A DNA stretch of 64,000 nt from Escherichia phage ST2. Below, piece after piece: positions 3,931 to 63,757 of this stretch. The position numbers were made by a program, and so were the translations under genes. The stretch is from the sequence record OM982647; one strand, 5' to 3'. A model generated the notes under the pieces. It made no database searches. It was given only the letters and a program-made list of their open reading frames with translations, and was not told where the DNA came from. How positions within the stretch are numbered: the first letter of the stretch is position 1; every line of letters starts with the position of its first letter.

Positions 3931-6014
3931 CCTTGGACAAATTTAAACGGAACTGATTCTAAATCCATTAAAGATGCTAACAATTTCAAACCTTTAGGTG
4001 CACTAGTTTTTTCTACAAATGAGGAGAACGATACCGGCTCATCTGATTCGATTTCACCCGCCATAGCAACCACCTCGCCTGTTTCCATGAGAACATCGCC
4101 GTCGTAAATGACAGCTTCATCCAACTGGTCCGAGGACATGACTTCAGCTTGAATAAATTTAAGGTTGGATTCTAAACCTGCACCGGTGTCAGATGACGCA
4201 TCTGTAATTTTATTTATCTGCAAGAGAATGCCTCTAGGCAAAATAATTTCTTGCTCATTAGGGTGATTACTCAACTGTCCTGGATAAATCACGTTAACTT
4301 TATGGGCGCCATCAATAGCCCATCCAACGTTAACACGGATTTGTTCTGGTGCATGCATAGCTGTTCTTACTTGACTAGGAGAAATGGTAACACCTTCGTC
4401 ATTATTGTCAATGTTAAGCTCTTTGCGAACTTCTTCAGGAGCAAGTCCAAGGGCAACGTTCTCTTTAAACCCGCCGAAAATAATAGGAGCTAGTGAAGTG
4501 GAAACATAGTTTCTGAAGTAGAATACCTTATTTTTAACCATTGCTTCGTAAATAGGCATTCTGATAGACTGAGCTCTATATAACGTTAGTCCTTCAGGTA
4601 AACGGTCTCCATTTAAAAACGCCGAATCAAGACCATCAATAGCGCGTTTAACTTCATCTTCATCCGCAACATCGTAAAAATCTGGTTTATAACGACCTAA
4701 CAACATATTATTGATATCGGTATACGCAGAAGAGGCATATTCACGAATAGCTCGTTTTTCAGCAACAGAGTATTGTTTAGGGTCCCGATTCATTGTTATA
4801 TTAAAGGTGCCTCTAGCCGATTCTCGTGCATAAGTATACATCACATTAGACAAGAACGCTGATTTACGTTGTTTCCAAGTTTTTTCAGATACTTCAGCTA
4901 AAACATCGTCGGCCAGTTGGAAATTATCACGTCTAAAATCTTCAAACCATTCGTCTTTAATAGAGTCTGCAATTTCGTTTGCAGCTTCAACAAAAGCAGC
5001 TAATGCTTTAACAGATGTTGTTTTTTCAGTTTTAATTTTCTTAGCAAACTTTTCTAAAGTTGGCTTAATAACACTACCATAAGAAACTTCATCAGCAAAT
5101 CTAAAGGATTCATCAATACGATTATAAATCTTATTTTCGATATCAGCAACTAAAGTGCCTTTTGCTGTGGATGATGCTTGGGCTAGTACGATTTCATATG
5201 CTTCAGGAAGTAATTCGGCTGTAGCCGGGCCACTAACTTCTTTAGCAGAATTTTCGTATTTCTGGAATAACTCACCTTCTTGGCGGTCAGCTTCTAAAGA
5301 TTGGCTTGCGGCAATAGCGCGCCGAGAAATTTTAGTACGAGCAATAACAGGCTTATCTTTACGTTTTTCTTCTACAGCAGCAATAGAACCAGCGATAGCC
5401 GTTTCTTTGGTGACCTTTTCGCCAGTCTTTTTACTCACATAAACTTCGCCAACATCAGAATCTACTTTCGTGTACAACTCTGTGTTAATGTTAGGGATGC
5501 CTTTAATATCTTCAATGTTGGCATTTTTACGAACCATCATCACATAGGTGTGTTTACCTGTGAATTGATACATTGCCGACAATACTTTAAAACGACCACC
5601 GGTTTTAGTAGAAACTAAACGAGCAAGAAGAGTTTGAAGTTGTTGTCCGCGTCCTTTCAATTTCTTGGTAGGGAATCTGAACAGAACCGCGTCCATACGA
5701 AGAGCTTTAACCTGTTCATATACTGTATTGAAAATGGTGTTGATTGCATCAATAGGAGCAGGACCAAGACCGTTTTTCAATTCAGCGAGATTACCCTTTT
5801 CAGACAGACTCATAATAACGACATGAGCATATTTGTCGCCAAGTTTAACTTGTTTTACAGCATCGCCTTCAGAAAGGTAAGAGAATAAGCGAACTACGAT
5901 GTTTGTATCGATATCACCAATTTTCCAGACTTGTGGAACTTTAGCTTTAGGGTTCAAATTGACGACAGGAAGACTGCCTTCAGATTCAAACACTTCATTT
6001 AATTGTTCAGACAT
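3927..6014 (-). CDS. alt: Alt-like ADP-ribosyltransferase (virion-injected)
   Basis: 695 aa (T4 Alt 682 aa); R-S-EXE motifs LYRAQ / YVSTS / NEQEI; between 54 and 30 as in T4. Confidence 0.75.
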   Translation of the reverse strand: MSEQLNEVFESEGSLPVVNLNPKAKVPQVWKIGDIDTNIVVRLFSYLSEGDAVKQVKLGDKYAHVVIMSLSEKGNLAELKNGLGPAPIDAINTIFNTVYEQVKALRMDAVLFRFPTKKLKGRGQQLQTLLARLVSTKTGGRFKVLSAMYQFTGKHTYVMMVRKNANIEDIKGIPNINTELYTKVDSDVGEVYVSKKTGEKVTKETAIAGSIAAVEEKRKDKPVIARTKISRRAIAASQSLEADRQEGELFQKYENSAKEVSGPATAELLPEAYEIVLAQASSTAKGTLVADIENKIYNRIDESFRFADEVSYGSVIKPTLEKFAKKIKTEKTTSVKALAAFVEAANEIADSIKDEWFEDFRRDNFQLADDVLAEVSEKTWKQRKSAFLSNVMYTYARESARGTFNITMNRDPKQYSVAEKRAIREYASSAYTDINNMLLGRYKPDFYDVADEDEVKRAIDGLDSAFLNGDRLPEGLTLYRAQSIRMPIYEAMVKNKVFYFRNYVSTSLAPIIFGGFKENVALGLAPEEVRKELNIDNNDEGVTISPSQVRTAMHAPEQIRVNVGWAIDGAHKVNVIYPGQLSNHPNEQEIILPRGILLQINKITDASSDTGAGLESNLKFIQAEVMSSDQLDEAVIYDGDVLMETGEVVAMAGEIESDEPVSFSSFVEKTSAPKGLKLLASLMDLESVPFKFVQG

Positions 6015-38552: not shown

Positions 38553-38582
38553 TTTGAATAAATATCCTTAAAAGGAGGTATT

Positions 38583-39242
38583 ATGGCAACACCAAAAGTG
38601 TCATTTTCGCCTAGTGATATTCTATTTGGGTTGCTAGATCGTATTTTCAAAGATAACGCTACTGGAAAGGTTTTAATGTCTCGAGTAGCGGTAATTATTC
38701 TTTTGTTCCTAATGGCACTAATATGGTACAAAGGAAGTATTTTGCTGGATTATTATGTAAGAGCTAAGTATGATACTTATACTGAAATAATCCAAAAAGA
38801 ACGAGCTTTACGTTTTGAATCTGCGGCTCTAGAACAACTGCAAATAGTTCATATCTCATCTGGTGCAGATTTTAGTGCTGTGTATTCTTTCAGACCTAAA
38901 AACTTAAATTATTTCGTCGACCTTATAGCTTATGAAGGCAAACTACCTAGCACAATTTCTGAAAAGTCCCTTGGCGGATTCCCGGTGGATAAAACGGCTA
39001 ATGAATATATAATTCATTTAAGTGGCCGTCATTTCTCATCTAAATCAGAATTTGCATTTTTGCCTACAAAATCTAAGACCGCCGAACTTTCTTATATGTA
39101 TAGTTGCCCATACTTTAATTTGGATAACATCTACGCTGGAACTGTGACGATGTATTGGTATAAGGGGAATAATATACTTGAGGAGGAACGCTTAGCGGCT
39201 ATATGCAACCAAGCGGTCCGAATACTAGGAAGGGCTAAATAA
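38583..39242 (+). CDS. t: Holin
   Basis: 219 aa; MATPKVSFSPSDILFGLLDRIFKDNATGKVLMSRVAVIILLF... as T4 T; single TM then periplasmic domain. Confidence 0.9.
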   Translation: MATPKVSFSPSDILFGLLDRIFKDNATGKVLMSRVAVIILLFLMALIWYKGSILLDYYVRAKYDTYTEIIQKERALRFESAALEQLQIVHISSGADFSAVYSFRPKNLNYFVDLIAYEGKLPSTISEKSLGGFPVDKTANEYIIHLSGRHFSSKSEFAFLPTKSKTAELSYMYSCPYFNLDNIYAGTVTMYWYKGNNILEEERLAAICNQAVRILGRAK

Positions 39243-61112: not shown

Positions 61113-61349
61113 TTAACCGCTTACTGGTGTAGGGGTAAACATTGCAGCATTCTTAGTTTTCCAAGTTGCTGCATCAGAAACGACATCAGAATAAGCTGCC
61201 TTTTCTGACGGAAAGATTTGATAATGAGAATCTGCAATCCGATGTTCGTTTGAATAAATCTCAAACGGTACAGAAACTTCCATACCTTTAACTTCTTTGC
61301 CTTCACCAGCCGGACGTGTAAAGGTTTTGATATTAACGTAACCACCCAT
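61113..61349 (-). CDS. soc: Small outer capsid protein
   Basis: 78 aa; GYVNIKTF...HYQIFPSEKAAYS as T4 Soc. Confidence 0.85.
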   Translation of the reverse strand: MGGYVNIKTFTRPAGEGKEVKGMEVSVPFEIYSNEHRIADSHYQIFPSEKAAYSDVVSDAATWKTKNAAMFTPTPVSG

Positions 61350-61380
61350 AATTAACTCCTTTGTTGTTTAATTACAGGTG

Positions 61381-61388
61381 TATTTATA
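61381..61388 (-). promoter_or_regulatory. Late promoter TATAAATA for soc
   Basis: Exact TATAAATA on minus strand 32 nt upstream of soc ATG. Confidence 0.6.
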
Positions 61389-61394
61389 ACTTAA

Positions 61395-61916
61395 TCAGTA
61401 ACCATTATCCTGACGTTCAAAGTTGTGTTGGTTTTTCAAGTAGTAAAGTTTAAAGATTTCTTCAGCAGAAAGACCCAGACCTTGGAACATATTTAGAACG
61501 AAATGCAGAATATCAATCATTTCAAATTTAATTTCAAGTTGGTCTTCAGGAGACAGTTCATCGATACGACGATTTCGATATTCAGCATGTTGTGCTTTCC
61601 ATGGCTTCCAAACACTGCTAGCGGCTTTCTCACCATTGCTCATACCGCCAAGTGAAGTCAACAGTTCACGGAATTCATCATCAATATAATCTTTCTGATT
61701 ACGCAGCCAATCAACAACATCGCCAGCAGTGGCCAATTCATCAGGATGTTTGTTATGTTCAGGCTTGTCATTTGCCAGACGAACCTGTAAAGATTTCTGC
61801 ATATCAAGCATTACCTGCAGTGGGTCTTTATCTTCGTGAATCAGAGCATTAAAATAAGCTTCTTCTGCTTTATCAACACCAGAAATAAGTTGTGAACATT
61901 CGTTAAAGTGTGCCAT
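61395..61916 (-). CDS. 56: dCTPase / dCTP pyrophosphatase
   Basis: MAHFNEC... start with SD AAGGA; ...PLQVMLDMQ...IDDEFRELLTSLG...EIFKLYYLKN as T4 gp56. Confidence 0.85.
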   Translation of the reverse strand: MAHFNECSQLISGVDKAEEAYFNALIHEDKDPLQVMLDMQKSLQVRLANDKPEHNKHPDELATAGDVVDWLRNQKDYIDDEFRELLTSLGGMSNGEKAASSVWKPWKAQHAEYRNRRIDELSPEDQLEIKFEMIDILHFVLNMFQGLGLSAEEIFKLYYLKNQHNFERQDNGY

Positions 61917-62005
61917 TATTTTTCCTTTCAATTCAGTATAAGAGAGTTAATTCTAACATTAATTTTATAAAGCGTAATAAATAATAAGGTAACTAAGGAG
62001 ATATT

Positions 62006-62203
62006 ATGTTTAAACTTCCATCGTTAATCAACGCTATTAAAGGCAATAAAAAGAAAACTGCTATCGCCGCAATAGTTGTAGGTGGCATTATTTCATGGAA
62101 CTTCGGTATCGCACCATTATTAGTTGCTAATGGTATTATAGTTCCTTCTGTTCCATTGGATACTGTAGTTGATTTGGCCTTTGCTTTAGTTGGGCTTGTT
62201 TAA
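62006..62203 (+). CDS. Small hydrophobic protein on opposite strand, 65 aa
   Basis: Strong SD AAGGAG 7 nt before ATG; two hydrophobic segments; stop overlaps gene 61 stop. Confidence 0.45.
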   Translation: MFKLPSLINAIKGNKKKTAIAAIVVGGIISWNFGIAPLLVANGIIVPSVPLDTVVDLAFALVGLV

Positions 62204-63222
62204 ATCTTAGAATAATGAGATAATCTCATTTTAGCATGCAACCCACTTGAAATATTCTGTTTCATATATTCTAAAATTTCTTGTGGTGTTGCATTTTCTT
62301 TCATTACCATATCATTCACATCCTTTGATCTCCATGGAGCTCGATCCCAGAACATGACACGTTCGCCTGCATCAACTAATCGCTTCATACGAGCTATAGT
62401 ATCCGGATGCCTAGGTTCATTATCCATTACCCATACCCGACGTTCTTTAAATGGTACCACATCTAAATCTATTGAGCCGCCTGTAATAGCGATTGCGTTT
62501 GGTATGAATAAACTATCAATAGGACCTTCCATTACCCAGACGTCCCCTTCCTTAACACGTTCAACACCATAAATTTTTGTTGCAGACTCAAACGCTTTAA
62601 TAGTGATATATTTCTGAGGAGCATCTTTACGAAGTGCACGTCCTTGGAACGACTCGGCCTTCCCATCTTTATTAAAAATAGGAATCACTAAACGCGGTTC
62701 AGGAATCTCTTTCTTATACGTACCCGGTTGAATCTTGTTGACCAATTTGGGCCATTCTAATGTGAACCATAATCTGTTCCATGATTCTTTAGGAATACAC
62801 CGAGACTTAACATATTTCACAATAGGATGCTCTTCAGGCAACTTGTCTAGACGAGAACAAGACGGCAAAGAATTTATAGTCTTTTTCTCTGGCTCCGGTT
62901 TAGCTTCAGGAACCTTTTCAATCTTTGGTTCCATTCTAGCTTTTTCTTTACGAACTTCCATTAGATATTCGCGATAAAGCTCTTCATCATACTCTTTTAA
63001 GTATCCGGAAATTGTATTGTGGTATTGACAGTTATAGCAATGCACATTACCAGGAGTACCGCCATAATACCATCCGCGAGCTTTCATTGCATCTGTCTGG
63101 GAGTCGCCACAAACTGGACATCGAAATGTTAATTTAAATGTGCTTGAATTATTGATTTGTCTAAAACGAGGTAGGTGAGAAAACGCACGATAAGCAAATT
63201 CATTATCTATCCATTCAGCCAT
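62200..63222 (-). CDS. 61: DNA primase
   Basis: 340 aa from ATG with SD GGAGAA; WIDNEFAYRA...FRCPVCGDSQTD...HCYNCQYH zinc-binding domain as T4 gp61. Confidence 0.9.
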   Translation of the reverse strand: MAEWIDNEFAYRAFSHLPRFRQINNSSTFKLTFRCPVCGDSQTDAMKARGWYYGGTPGNVHCYNCQYHNTISGYLKEYDEELYREYLMEVRKEKARMEPKIEKVPEAKPEPEKKTINSLPSCSRLDKLPEEHPIVKYVKSRCIPKESWNRLWFTLEWPKLVNKIQPGTYKKEIPEPRLVIPIFNKDGKAESFQGRALRKDAPQKYITIKAFESATKIYGVERVKEGDVWVMEGPIDSLFIPNAIAITGGSIDLDVVPFKERRVWVMDNEPRHPDTIARMKRLVDAGERVMFWDRAPWRSKDVNDMVMKENATPQEILEYMKQNISSGLHAKMRLSHYSKI

Positions 63223-63262
63223 AGTATTCTCCAGAGGCCTTAAATTAATAAGGCCCATCTTA

Positions 63263-63757
63263 TCACAACTTATTAATATTTACTTTAATTCGCTTTCTTT
63301 TCTTGGAAGGAATTTGTTCGGGACCTTTATTTACGACTGCACCTGTAGTTGTTCCTGATGCAATAGCTTGAGGGCTGCCACCTGAATCGCCAGCAACCAT
63401 ATCCTCAAATAAAGGGAGCTCTTTAAATATTTCTTTCTGTTGTTCTTCCGTAATGTTATAGCGTGAAGCTACAGCACTCCAGGCAGACATCATTGAGGCC
63501 ATTCCATTAAGACCCGGAACAGTGCTCATCATTCGCTTCATTGAACGAACTGAAGCATGAAAAGGTGTATACGCCGCTTTTTCTTCGGGAGTAGAAGGAC
63601 GTTTAAGAACACTTCCACGTTCATCGATGATTTTGGCGTCGTATGCTTTCCATTCGGTAAAAGGTTTTTGCATTAGTCGAATAAACTTATATGCGTAAAC
63701 AGAATCTATTGCAGTGTTAATAATACCCATAGGTACCTCCTGAGTATATTTAATCAA
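63263..63757 (-). CDS. Hypothetical protein (61.1 position)
   Basis: 164-aa ORF. Confidence 0.45.
   Translation of the reverse strand: MIKYTQEVPMGIINTAIDSVYAYKFIRLMQKPFTEWKAYDAKIIDERGSVLKRPSTPEEKAAYTPFHASVRSMKRMMSTVPGLNGMASMMSAWSAVASRYNITEEQQKEIFKELPLFEDMVAGDSGGSPQAIASGTTTGAVVNKGPEQIPSKKRKRIKVNINKL

What the first reader, a model, noticed from the sequence alone, without database searches (positions are those of the whole stretch)
62006..62203. Opposite-strand small membrane protein gene wedged between genes 56 and 61, convergent with primase
A 65-aa hydrophobic ORF with a strong SD (AAGGAG) lies on the + strand inside an otherwise all-minus early block. Its stop codon overlaps the primase stop codon within the palindromic TTTAAA. 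Converging transcription here could also provide antisense regulation of gene 61 or 56.
Basis: seen in the sequence. Interest (0 to 1): 0.4.

Follow-up and report, generated by a model that had tools for sequence, protein, structure and literature searches.

The report
Late holin-like mini-gene beside T4-type primase
The small opposite-strand ORF is a real, conserved gene of T4-like phages (unannotated in the T4 reference genome) that appears to be switched on late from a T4 late promoter and encodes a 65-residue membrane protein distantly related to the core of a known family of phage holins; its function is untested.

Summary
The window comes from a Mosigvirus (RB69-like, 98% identical to PhAPEC2). 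ORF 62006..62203 (+) lies between gene 56 and primase gene 61, has an AAGGAG ribosome-binding site, and overlaps the primase stop codon inside TTTAAA.

It is a real gene. Orthologues (RB69 ORF029w, T4 "dam.1", phrog_2024) sit convergent with the primase gene in at least nine genera. dN/dS is about 0.06-0.2, and W31, N32 and P37 are invariant in the T4-type alignments (N32 is replaced in a few remote members); G43 and P47 are nearly so.

An NATAAATA box lies in a 16-position window 10-25 nt upstream of the ATG in 9 of 11 genus-level loci (0 of 41 control ORFs). Here it is AATAAATA, the commonest accepted variant of the T4 late promoter, and the same variant precedes holin t in this genome. Late transcription would explain the reversed strand.

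The protein has a basic N-terminus, one strong transmembrane helix and a short C-terminal helix. Profile comparisons link it, via 96-99-residue prophage proteins, to the TM2-loop-TM3 core of GTA_holin_3TM (PF11351), the family of the tested ICP1 holin TeaA. It scores below Pfam's cutoff and lacks the linker and C-terminal tail.

Best reading: a late, holin-derived accessory membrane protein. Antisense control of primase remains possible but untested.

The parts
61976..61983 (+). AATAAATA, a T4 late-promoter (gp55-type) box of the A(-13) variant, ending 22 nt before the ATG
   Evidence: Read from the sequence and located by motif scan. NATAAATA occupies the same upstream window in 9 of 11 genus-level loci, against 0 of 41 control ORFs. 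A(-13) is the commonest variant, at 9 of 50 listed T4 late promoters (PMC2988020). In this window the same variant precedes holin t, where T4 has a perfect TATAAATA.
61989..61990 (+). Predicted late transcription start, about 6 nt downstream of the box (inferred, not shown)
   Evidence: Inferred from the geometry of T4 late promoters, in which the box sits at the -10 position about one helical turn upstream of the start (PMC2988020). No RNA data are available.
61995..62000 (+). Shine-Dalgarno sequence AAGGAG, 5 nt before the ATG
   Evidence: A GGAG or GGAGG element sits at the same position in every orthologous locus.
62006..62203 (+). CDS of the 65-aa membrane protein; orthologue of RB69 ORF029w and T4 dam.1; member of phrog_2024
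   Evidence: phrog_2024, E=4.1e-27, full length; dN/dS 0.06-0.2.
62057..62128 (+). Codons 18-41: the main transmembrane helix, containing W31, N32 and P37
   Evidence: Hydropathy: best 19-mer at residues 22-40 scores 1.93, and the preceding N-terminus has net charge +5. AlphaFold places a helix at 15-41 with pLDDT 86-92. Invariant columns are listed.
62063..62200 (+). Codons 20-65: the core that aligns with TM2-loop-TM3 of GTA_holin_3TM (PF11351) holins
   Evidence: hhalign gives probability 72.5%, E=3.3e-5, score 31.5. None of 200 column-shuffled controls reaches that score, and reversed profiles score about 9. Bridge comparisons give 98.1% and 94.4%.
62156..62191 (+). Codons 51-62: short C-terminal amphipathic or hydrophobic helix (LDTVVDLAFALV), equivalent to a truncated holin TM3
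62199..62204 (.). TTTAAA palindrome holding the two overlapping convergent stop codons (+ TAA 62201-62203; - TAA 62202-62200)
   Evidence: The same 4-nt overlap of the two ORFs occurs in T4, RB55, Marfa, CF1, Kosakonia 305 and JS98.
62200..63222 (-). Gene 61 DNA primase, the convergent neighbour; a + strand late transcript would be antisense to its 3' end
   Evidence: No intrinsic terminator was found on either strand in 61200-63400. The hairpin just past the ORF stop is weak and not conserved.
61395..61916 (-). Gene 56 dCTPase, the divergent neighbour

Best explanation
ORF 62006..62203 is a genuine gene, the Mosigvirus orthologue of RB69 ORF029w and T4 'dam.1'.

It is oriented against the surrounding early genes because it is most likely a late gene. 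The gp55/gp33/gp45-modified RNA polymerase would recognise the AATAAATA box at 61976-61983 and start at about 61989. That gives a short leader carrying a strong SD, and a monocistronic message that has no terminator and so runs on, antisense, into the 3' end of primase gene 61. Early and middle (- strand) transcription and late (+ strand) transcription of this spot would be separated in time.

The product is a 65-residue inner-membrane protein. It has a basic cytoplasmic N-terminus with a short amphipathic helix, one full transmembrane helix (about residues 18-41) ending in the conserved WN...P motif, a short periplasmic loop (G43, P47, conserved acidic residue 52), and a 12-15-residue C-terminal helix too short to span the bilayer comfortably.

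In evolutionary terms it is a shortened derivative of the TM2-loop-TM3 core of the GTA_holin_3TM (PF11351) holins, the family that includes the tested ICP1 holin TeaA. It has lost the Q/E-rich linker and the basic C-terminal tail.

Proposed mechanism (inferred, not shown): it accumulates in the inner membrane late in infection and, through the conserved core, oligomerises or binds a partner. This would tune membrane integrity or proton-motive force and hence lysis timing, acting as an accessory to the T-holin system and not as a stand-alone holin.

My step-by-step confidence: real protein-coding gene 0.95; membrane protein 0.9; late promoter 0.75; homology to the PF11351 core 0.7; lysis-related function 0.35.
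For: Gene reality. tblastn finds it in 692 phage records and the profile search finds 59 small phage proteins. It is convergent with the primase gene in Tequatro-, Mosig-, Gapriver-, Dhaka-, Marfa-, Jiaoda-, Moon-, Kanagawa- and Gelderlandvirus, although the gene on the other side varies. dN/dS is 0.11 (window vs L008), 0.12 (T4 vs L013) and 0.057 (PEi20 vs Kosakonia 305); JS98 vs Marfa gives pS 0.80 against pN 0.13. W31, N32 and P37 are invariant in the T4-type alignments, and G43 and P47 nearly so.

Late promoter. NATAAATA lies 12-22 nt before the ATG in 14 of 16 loci, with a perfect TATAAATA in Marfa, Kosakonia 305 and IME523. It is present in 9 of 11 genus representatives against a per-locus expectation of 0.6-2.6%, and in 0 of 41 control ORFs. 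The A(-13) variant accounts for 9 of 50 listed T4 late promoters (PMC2988020). In this window AATAAATA also precedes holin t, where T4 has TATAAATA, and TATAAATA precedes soc. No sigma-70-type + strand promoter was found. In Marfa, Kosakonia 305 and PEi20 the box abuts the divergent gene's start codon, so it cannot be that gene's -35 element.

Membrane protein. Hydropathy and charge pattern are conserved across clades. AlphaFold predicts helices at 4-11, 15-41 and 51-62 with mean pLDDT 80.

Holin link. CRP-125 gp44 scores 57.9 bits against PF11351 and sits in the T7 holin slot. Family profile vs PF11351 profile: probability 72.5%, E=3.3e-5. Controls: shuffles average about 11 with a maximum of 27.8, and none of 200 reaches the real 31.5. 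T4-type vs prophage-type: 98.1%, E=1e-13. Prophage-type vs PF11351: 94.4%, E=9e-8, and 93.5% in global mode. All 38 members vs PF11351: 93.7%. PF11351 is the only Pfam family touched by many members (9 of 38; the next best is touched by 2), and phrog_3427 'holin' is also hit. TeaA, identified through the PF11351 domain, collapses PMF and is triggered by dinitrophenol (PMC7182436). Relatives of gp44 are widely annotated as holins, and several lie next to lytic-enzyme genes.
Against: There are no expression data of any kind: I found no RNA-seq, Ribo-seq or proteomics covering this ORF.

The window protein itself matches no Pfam family. Family members reach PF11351 only below its gathering score. 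The direct T4-type vs PF11351 comparison gives only 65-72% probability; the stronger figures depend on a bridge family.

The protein lacks the linker and the C-terminal basic tail of PF11351 and is not next to an endolysin gene.

From established T4 genetics (my own knowledge, not tested here), t-defective T4 fails to lyse. This protein therefore cannot be a sufficient holin in T4.

The genomic context of the prophage-type relatives is ambiguous: the nearby lysozyme scores best as a tail lysozyme.

CF1 and CGG4-1 carry ATTAAATA instead of ATAAATA. T4 has G at position -13, which is not the commonest variant.

Two laboratory T4 derivatives carry frameshifts in the ORF. If these are real, the gene is dispensable in culture.
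Confidence: 0.55

Rival explanations
1. The selected function is convergent, antisense transcription. A late + strand RNA from this promoter runs into gene 61 and pairs with primase mRNA (and with read-through 61->56 mRNA), shutting down or destabilising it late in infection. On this view the ORF is mainly a vehicle that keeps the RNA translated and stable.
For: The stop-stop overlap with the primase gene leaves no room for a terminator, and none was found. The downstream hairpin is weak and not conserved. The tail-to-tail linkage with the primase gene is kept in nine genera while the other neighbour changes. [quoted passage not shown]
Against: dN/dS of 0.06-0.2, with synonymous sites saturated between genera and residues W31, N32 and P37 conserved, shows selection on the peptide and not only on an RNA. 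In CJ20, Mineola and CGG4-1 the ORF does not overlap the primase gene. In TH15 a second tandem copy lies between the first copy and the primase gene. Homologues exist in prophages that have no primase gene nearby. The promoter points away from gene 56, so it cannot be antisense to the gene 56 coding region.
Confidence: 0.12
2. It is a late inner-membrane protein whose job is unrelated to lysis, for example membrane-associated head assembly, blocking superinfecting DNA, or countering a host membrane-based defence. On this view the resemblance to the holin core reflects only shared ancestry or a common helix-packing motif.
For: The membrane topology and late-promoter evidence apply equally. The gene lies in a region rich in small membrane or periplasmic accessory genes: sp, imm and imm.1 are within 3.5 kb in PhAPEC2. 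It is not adjacent to any lysis gene. T4 r-gene genetics has not assigned a locus here; rIV is sp (PMC6832632).
Against: The only family with detectable similarity is a holin family. Nothing matched in the defence-system models, and PDB gave no significant match: the one Foldseek hit had E=7.7 and the best profile hits (E about 0.01-0.03) were acetylcholine-receptor transmembrane segments. No positive evidence points to any specific alternative function.
Confidence: 0.28
3. The gene is real but is expressed early or middle from an unrecognised promoter, and the NATAAATA box is conserved for another reason, such as AT-rich divergent-promoter sequence for the - strand neighbour.
For: In T4 the box overlaps the -35 element of a potential early promoter, P(E)17.40, annotated on the opposite strand in X01416. 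The region is 65-80% A+T.
Against: No sigma-70-like + strand promoter lies upstream. The box keeps its distance to the + strand ATG while the - strand neighbour differs: dam, gene 56, or a ~94-102-residue ORF that some records label as a pyrophosphohydrolase and others leave hypothetical. In three genera it abuts that neighbour's start codon. None of 41 control ORFs has the box. [quoted passage not shown]
Confidence: 0.08
4. It is a chance ORF in an AT-rich intergenic spacer and not a gene.
For: It is short, has no Pfam match, and is unannotated in the T4, JS98, PEi20 and IME523 records. Similar-sized spurious ORFs are common in the window.
Against: Conservation across nine genera, low dN/dS, conserved residues, a conserved SD and promoter box, and a PHROG family.
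Confidence: 0.02

Closest known systems
RB69 ORF029w / T4 'dam.1' / PHROG phrog_2024 (function unknown)
   Same: Orthologous. The window protein matches phrog_2024 over its full length (E=4.1e-27). It is 90-97% identical to Mosigvirus proteins and about 55% identical to the T4 ORF. It has the same position and the same 4-nt stop overlap with gene 61.
   Different: Nothing material differs; this is the same gene. In T4 the dam gene lies between it and gene 56, whereas here gene 56 is the direct neighbour. The T4 RefSeq record does not annotate the ORF at all.
GTA_holin_3TM (Pfam PF11351, formerly DUF3154): 3TM holins such as ICP1 TeaA; by its Pfam name, the R. capsulatus GTA-release holin
   Same: The core (TM helix with aromatic-N/A-aromatic...P, then G, then LP..P-x-D/E, then a hydrophobic helix ending in G) aligns with holin residues 69-121, well above shuffled controls. 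It is linked through an intermediate prophage family at 94-98% probability. Both are small phage inner-membrane proteins. TeaA is made by a lytic myovirus that shows lysis inhibition.
   Different: It is about half the length (65 vs 120-146 aa). It lacks the Q/E-rich linker and the basic C-terminal RTFEKMKG tail. It scores below Pfam's gathering threshold; the window protein gives no hit at all. It is not next to an endolysin gene. T4-like phages already have an unrelated holin (T), so a stand-alone holin role is unlikely.
T4 late genes transcribed on the strand opposite to the early genes, from gp55-dependent TATAAATA promoters
   Same: An 8-bp box at the expected distance from the SD and ATG, with AT-rich sequence downstream, + strand polarity, and the A(-13) variant recognised in T4.
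   Different: It is a single late gene isolated inside a run of more than 40 early and middle genes. It is not part of a late operon. Its promoter has not been mapped experimentally.
Small T4 membrane accessory proteins of lysis and exclusion (RI antiholin, Imm, Sp)
   Same: Similar size class, inner-membrane or periplasmic location, accessory and probably dispensable. sp and imm are encoded within 3.5 kb in PhAPEC2.
   Different: No sequence similarity was detected to any of them in the Pfam and PHROG scans. Those genes lie on the early (-) strand in PhAPEC2, whereas this one lies on the + strand behind a late-type box.

Membership tests
phrog_2024 (ORF029w / dam.1 family) | Full-length match to the family HMM | tested here: met
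   E=4.1e-27, 94.8 bits, residues 1-65 on profile positions 1-65 of 65.
phrog_2024 (ORF029w / dam.1 family) | Position convergent with the 3' end of the primase gene (gene 61) in a T4-like genome | tested here: met
   The same arrangement is seen in nine genera.
phrog_2024 (ORF029w / dam.1 family) | Conserved core W31, N32, P37, G43, P47 and an acidic residue at position 52 | tested here: met
   The window protein has every one of these residues (alignments).
GTA_holin_3TM (PF11351) | Score at or above Pfam's gathering threshold (24.8 bits) | tested here: not met
   The window protein gives no Pfam hit. Nine of 38 family members hit PF11351, all below threshold; best E=0.0021, individual scores about 14-15 bits where listed.
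GTA_holin_3TM (PF11351) | Homology of the TM2-loop-TM3 core by profile-profile comparison | tested here: met
   Probability 72.5%, E=3.3e-5, with none of 200 shuffled controls reaching the score. Bridge comparisons give 98.1% and 94.4%; the whole family gives 93.7%.
GTA_holin_3TM (PF11351) | Full architecture: N-terminal hydrophobic helix, Q/E-rich linker, two C-terminal TM segments and a basic C-terminal tail, about 120-146 aa in total | tested here: not met
   The protein is 65 aa with no linker and no basic tail. A short N-terminal helix is present, but its similarity is not statistically supported.
GTA_holin_3TM (PF11351) | Location in a lysis cassette, next to an endolysin or in a known holin slot | tested here: not met
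   The neighbours are the dCTPase and primase genes.
GTA_holin_3TM (PF11351) | Holin activity: PMF collapse and triggering by energy poisons, as shown for TeaA | not testable with these tools
   This needs expression experiments. The reference assay is described in PMC7182436.
T4 late (gp55-dependent) transcription units | TATAAATA-type box placed as a -10 element a short distance upstream of the SD and ATG | tested here: met
   AATAAATA at 61976-61983, ending 22 nt before the ATG. It is conserved in 9 of 11 genus-level loci against 0 of 41 controls. The A(-13) variant is accepted for T4.
T4 late (gp55-dependent) transcription units | A gp55/gp33/gp45- and replication-dependent RNA 5' end in vivo | not testable with these tools
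   No transcript data were found for this ORF.
T4 holin T family | Sequence similarity to gpt | tested here: not met
   No Pfam or PHROG hit to T-holin models. gpt is a separate 219-aa gene at 38583..39242.
cis-antisense RNA regulators | A demonstrated antisense transcript overlapping its target and affecting the target's level | not testable with these tools
   Only the geometry can be shown: convergent genes with no terminator between them.

The most novel reading that the evidence does not exclude
T4 and its relatives carry a second, cryptic holin-family gene, missing from the T4 reference annotation. It would be a late-expressed 'mini' derivative of the TeaA/GTA-type 3TM holins that modulates PMF collapse, lysis timing or lysis inhibition alongside the unrelated T holin. 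Its unterminated late transcript might at the same time silence the primase gene by antisense pairing.
Probability: 0.25. Interest if true: 0.7.

Novelty: new variant of a known kind. Interest (0 to 1): 0.48.

Why it matters
T4 is one of the most thoroughly annotated viruses, and its lysis system (T, E, RI, RIII, spanins) is generally treated as complete. Yet a conserved, apparently late-promoter-driven membrane gene sits unannotated in the 309-bp gap between dam and gene 61 of the T4 reference genome (17738..17938 +).

If the link to the TeaA/GTA holin family is real and functional, it adds a new component to T-even lysis or membrane physiology. It also connects the T-even and ICP1 lysis-inhibition systems through a shared protein module.

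Practically, the ORF should be annotated consistently. At present it is missing from several reference genomes and is mislabelled as dCTP pyrophosphatase, thymidylate synthase or DNA packaging ATPase in others.

The locus is also a clean natural test case for separating a peptide function from an antisense function at convergent, stop-overlapping genes.

Tried and rejected
- **Rfam.** A scan of 61300-63400 at E<=1 found nothing.
- **Promoter and terminator scans.** The sigma-70 and intrinsic-terminator scan found no + strand promoter and no terminator. A - strand TTGATT-17-CATAAT site overlaps the ORF start, but such sites are no more frequent here than in shuffled sequence. I looked by eye for a MotA box on the - strand and found nothing convincing.
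- **Downstream hairpin.** The inverted repeat after the stop (62214-62230) folds at -5.1 kcal/mol with z=-1.3, and it is absent in T4, JS98 and Marfa. I rejected it as a terminator.
- **Structure.** The AlphaFold model is a plain helical hairpin. Foldseek against PDB returned one meaningless hit (E=7.7), and a PDB sequence-profile search hit only acetylcholine-receptor transmembrane segments.
- **Other family libraries.** PADLOC and NCBIfam gave nothing meaningful.
- **Prophage context.** The neighbourhood of the 96-99-residue relatives at first looked like a lysis cassette. However, the lysozyme scores best as a tail lysozyme and the other neighbours have no family, so I do not use that context as evidence.
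- **Literature.** Searches for dam.1, ORF029w, T4 Ribo-seq and T4 TSS maps found nothing on this ORF. The T4 genome review PMC150520 is not held. rIV, which maps nearby, is sp and not this ORF.
- **Search tools.** The search for related loci could not use the broad alignment. Word-indexed protein searches missed the T4 clade entirely.
- **TeaA.** I did not retrieve ICP1 TeaA for a direct comparison.
Full report
**1. What is there**

The window is a T4-type phage of the genus Mosigvirus. The 2-kb stretch around the finding is 98.2% identical to Escherichia phage PhAPEC2 and 97% identical to JS09 and many others.

- ATG at 62006 and TAA at 62201-62203, encoding 65 residues.
- AAGGAG at 61995-62000, 5 nt upstream of the ATG.
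- Gene 56 dCTPase (61395..61916, -) lies on one side and gene 61 primase (62200..63222, -) on the other.
- The primase stop (TTA on the + strand, 62200-62202) and the ORF stop overlap inside TTTAAA at 62199-62204.
- In PhAPEC2 this is the only + strand CDS among the first 47 genes.

ORF length alone is not evidence, because one search lists many equally long ORFs in the wrong frames of real genes.

**2. It is a real and widely conserved gene**

The ORF is annotated as a hypothetical protein in PhAPEC2 ("similar to RB69ORF029w") and as "dam.1" in RB55, a member of the T4 species. It belongs to phrog_2024, function unknown, with E=4.1e-27 over its full length. It has no Pfam family.

The T4 RefSeq record leaves the 309-bp dam-61 gap empty, although the ORF is intact there. 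It would be NC_000866 17738..17938 (+).

tblastn finds the ORF in 692 phage records. Searches with more divergent members extend it to Dhakavirus, Marfavirus, Jiaodavirus, Moonvirus, Kanagawavirus and Gelderlandvirus.

In every locus I opened, the ORF lies on the strand opposite to, and convergent with, the primase gene. The gene on the other side differs: dam in T4, gene 56 here, and a ~94-102-residue ORF elsewhere that some records label as a pyrophosphohydrolase and others leave hypothetical. The 4-nt overlap of the two ORFs recurs in T4, Marfa, CF1, Kosakonia 305 and JS98. CJ20, Mineola and CGG4-1 have a short gap instead.

Codon-level comparison shows purifying selection on the peptide:

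| Pair | Result |
|---|---|
| window vs L008 | dN/dS 0.11 |
| T4 vs L013 | dN/dS 0.12 |
| PEi20 vs Kosakonia 305 | dN/dS 0.057 |
| JS98 vs Marfa | pS 0.80 (saturated), pN 0.13 |

W31, N32 and P37 are invariant in the T4-type alignments, and G43 and P47 are invariant or nearly so. When the remote members are added, only P37 stays invariant, with N32 and P47 above 90%.

An exhaustive HMM search of 1.84 billion representative proteins finds only 20 clusters, all 33-99 residues long. The family is narrow and consists only of small proteins.

**3. Why it is on the "wrong" strand: a late promoter**

Upstream of the ATG there is no sigma-70-type + strand promoter. There is an AATAAATA at 61976-61983, ending 22 nt before the ATG.

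Comparing genera, an NATAAATA box sits 12-22 nt upstream of the ATG in 14 of 16 loci, while the surrounding sequence cannot be aligned:

| Box | Where found |
|---|---|
| TATAAATA (perfect) | Marfa, Kosakonia 305, IME523 |
| CATAAATA | Gaprivervirus, PEi20, Mineola |
| AATAAATA | this window, JS98, a Tequatrovirus contig |
| GATAAATA | T4 |
| ATTAAATA | CF1, CGG4-1 |

With one locus per genus, 9 of 11 have ATAAATA in a 16-position window. The expectation is 0.6% per locus from the local background and 2.6% from composition, and 0 of 41 control long ORFs have it. The binomial figures from that call assume independent loci, which related phages are not. Still, the flanks have diverged beyond alignment while the box has stayed in place.

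The T4 late-transcription review states that of 50 listed T4 late promoters, 32 are perfect and 9 have A at -13. [quoted passage not shown]

Within this window:

- TATAAATA precedes soc on the - strand.
- AATAAATA precedes holin gene t by 18 nt, exactly where T4 has a perfect TATAAATA 17 nt from the ATG.

So this phage does use the A(-13) form at a site that is a canonical late promoter in T4.

One rival reading is that the box is a -35 element of a divergent early promoter. In T4 it does overlap the potential promoter P(E)17.40 annotated in X01416. That reading fails in Marfa, Kosakonia 305 and PEi20, where the box directly abuts the start codon of the divergent gene.

I therefore infer, without RNA data, that this is a late gene with a transcription start near 61989.

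**4. What happens downstream**

No intrinsic terminator is found on either strand between 61200 and 63400. The inverted repeat just past the stop is weak (-5.1 kcal/mol, z=-1.3) and is absent in T4, JS98 and Marfa. Rfam finds nothing.

A late + strand transcript would therefore continue antisense into the 3' end of gene 61. It would also be complementary to any early 61->56 read-through mRNA. It cannot be antisense to the gene 56 coding region, because the promoter lies beyond the gene 56 start and points away from it.

Whether this antisense RNA has any effect cannot be decided here. The strong peptide-level constraint argues that it is not the main function. So do the tandem second copy in TH15 and ESCO47, the loci with gaps, and the homologues in prophages that lack a primase gene.

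**5. The protein**

All clades share the same layout:

- a basic N-terminus (net +5 here);
- one strongly hydrophobic stretch of about 22 residues (best 19-mer at residues 22-40, Kyte-Doolittle 1.93);
- a moderately hydrophobic, slightly acidic C-terminal tail of about 24 residues.

AlphaFold, with a 24-sequence alignment, predicts helices at 4-11, 15-41 and 51-62, with mean pLDDT 80.

By the positive-inside rule the N-terminus is cytoplasmic. The loop with G43 and P47 and the conserved acidic residue would face the periplasm. The last helix is too short to span the bilayer comfortably. This topology is inferred.

Structure and sequence searches of PDB give nothing meaningful. The defence-system models give nothing.

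**6. A remote link to a holin family**

Remote members found by the exhaustive search (P0064, P0067, P0069, P0070, P0073) independently give sub-threshold hits to the same C-terminal region of Pfam GTA_holin_3TM (PF11351) and/or of phrog_3427, annotated "holin". Across 38 family members, PF11351 is the only Pfam family touched by many: 9 members, best E=0.0021, against at most 2 members for any other family.

A weak tblastn hit led to Roseobacter phage CRP-125 gp44. This is a genuine PF11351 protein (57.9 bits against a cutoff of 24.8). It lies between the tail-fibre genes and maturase A, which is the slot of the T7 holin.

The profile-profile comparisons:

| Comparison | Probability | E-value | Note |
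|---|---|---|---|
| T4-type family vs gp44 alone | 49.5% | 1.7e-4 | |
| T4-type family vs 12 gp44 relatives | 72.5% | 3.3e-5 | family residues 20-65 on holin residues 69-121 (TM2-loop-TM3) |
| T4-type vs prophage-type | 98.1% | 1e-13 | |
| prophage-type vs PF11351 set | 94.4% | 9e-8 | 93.5% in global mode, end to end |
| all 38 members vs PF11351 set | 93.7% | 1.8e-7 | |

Controls for the 72.5% result (real score 31.5): reversed profiles score about 9. One hundred column shuffles of the family average 10.8 (maximum 17.3). One hundred shuffles of the holin's C-terminal half average 10.9 (maximum 27.8). None of the 200 reaches 31.5.

The "prophage-type" bridge is a family of 96-99-residue proteins found in enterobacterial prophages.

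PF11351 has experimental support. [quoted passage not shown] The R. capsulatus locus rcc00555-rcc00556 is required for GTA release (PMC5026251); I take the link between rcc00556 and PF11351 from the Pfam family name only. Relatives of gp44 are widely annotated as holins, and several lie next to peptidase M15A or glycoside-hydrolase genes.

**7. Limits of the holin link**

- The window protein does not meet Pfam's threshold.
- It has about half the length of PF11351 proteins, and it lacks both the Q/E-rich linker and the basic C-terminal tail.
- It is not in a lysis cassette.
- From established T4 genetics (my own knowledge), t mutants do not lyse, so this protein cannot be a sufficient holin in T4.
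- The prophage context is ambiguous.
- No r-type locus has been assigned here; rIV is sp (PMC6832632).
- Two laboratory T4 derivatives carry frameshifting indels in the ORF. These suggest dispensability in culture, if they are not sequencing errors.

I therefore file the protein as a truncated relative (a variant) of the 3TM holin family and not as a member. I propose an accessory, membrane-modulating role late in infection, with low confidence in the specific function.

**8. Verdict**

- The gene itself is already known as an uncharacterised ORF in relatives.
- What this analysis adds: evidence that it is a late gene, its distribution across nine genera, its absence from the T4 reference annotation, and the remote relationship to TeaA/GTA-type holins.
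- Interest is moderate.

Noticed in passing
window 61381-61388 (- strand): A perfect TATAAATA lies 31 nt upstream of the soc start codon (soc is 61113..61349, -). Gene 56 is therefore flanked by two outward-facing late-promoter boxes: this one for soc and the one for the small ORF.
   Followed up: partly
window 38557-38564 (+), upstream of holin t (38583..39242): The holin t gene is preceded by AATAAATA 18 nt from its ATG, where T4 has a perfect TATAAATA 17 nt from the ATG. This phage therefore uses the A(-13) variant at a classic late promoter.
   Followed up: yes
L005 (TH15) 2501-2698 and 2707-2907; L006 (CJ20) 2699-2816: Gaprivervirus TH15 has two tandem copies of the family, one T4-type and one Dhakavirus-type. 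In CJ20 the second copy is disrupted (ATG followed directly by TGA, and only 118 bp remain before the primase gene). ESCO47 also has two adjacent copies (P0006 and P0043).
   Followed up: partly
NC_000866 17626-17934 (L004 2627-2935); also JS98 (L017), PEi20 (L021), IME523 (L024): The conserved ORF is not annotated in the T4 RefSeq record or in several other reference genomes. Elsewhere it carries wrong names: 'dCTP pyrophosphatase' in CGG4-1, and 'DNA packaging ATPase' or 'thymidylate synthase' in other records.
   Followed up: yes
L045 (T4_ev240) and L046 (mutant T4_583L), aligned in A5: Both laboratory T4 derivatives have frameshifting indels in the ORF: -1 nt in an A-run in ev240, and -2 nt plus a 4-nt deletion in the SD-ATG spacer in 583L. 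Either the gene is dispensable in culture or these are sequencing errors.
   Followed up: partly
L026-L032 (E. coli and Serratia chromosomes), gene at 5001-5297: A family of 96-99-residue relatives is widespread in enterobacterial prophages; one exact sequence occurs on more than 900 contigs. It lies at the end of a block that follows the tail-tip gene and includes a phage lysozyme and several ORFs with no family. The function of the block is unknown.
   Followed up: partly
window 62003-62031 (- strand): A sigma-70-like site, TTGATT-17-CATAAT, has a -10 element that overlaps the small ORF's start codon. It could drive gene 56, but such matches are no more frequent here than in shuffled sequence.
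   Followed up: partly
window 63223-63258 (- strand): The primase ORF extends 12 codons upstream of the start annotated in PhAPEC2 (MGLINLRPLENT before MAEWIDNEF). Which ATG is used was not examined.
   Followed up: no
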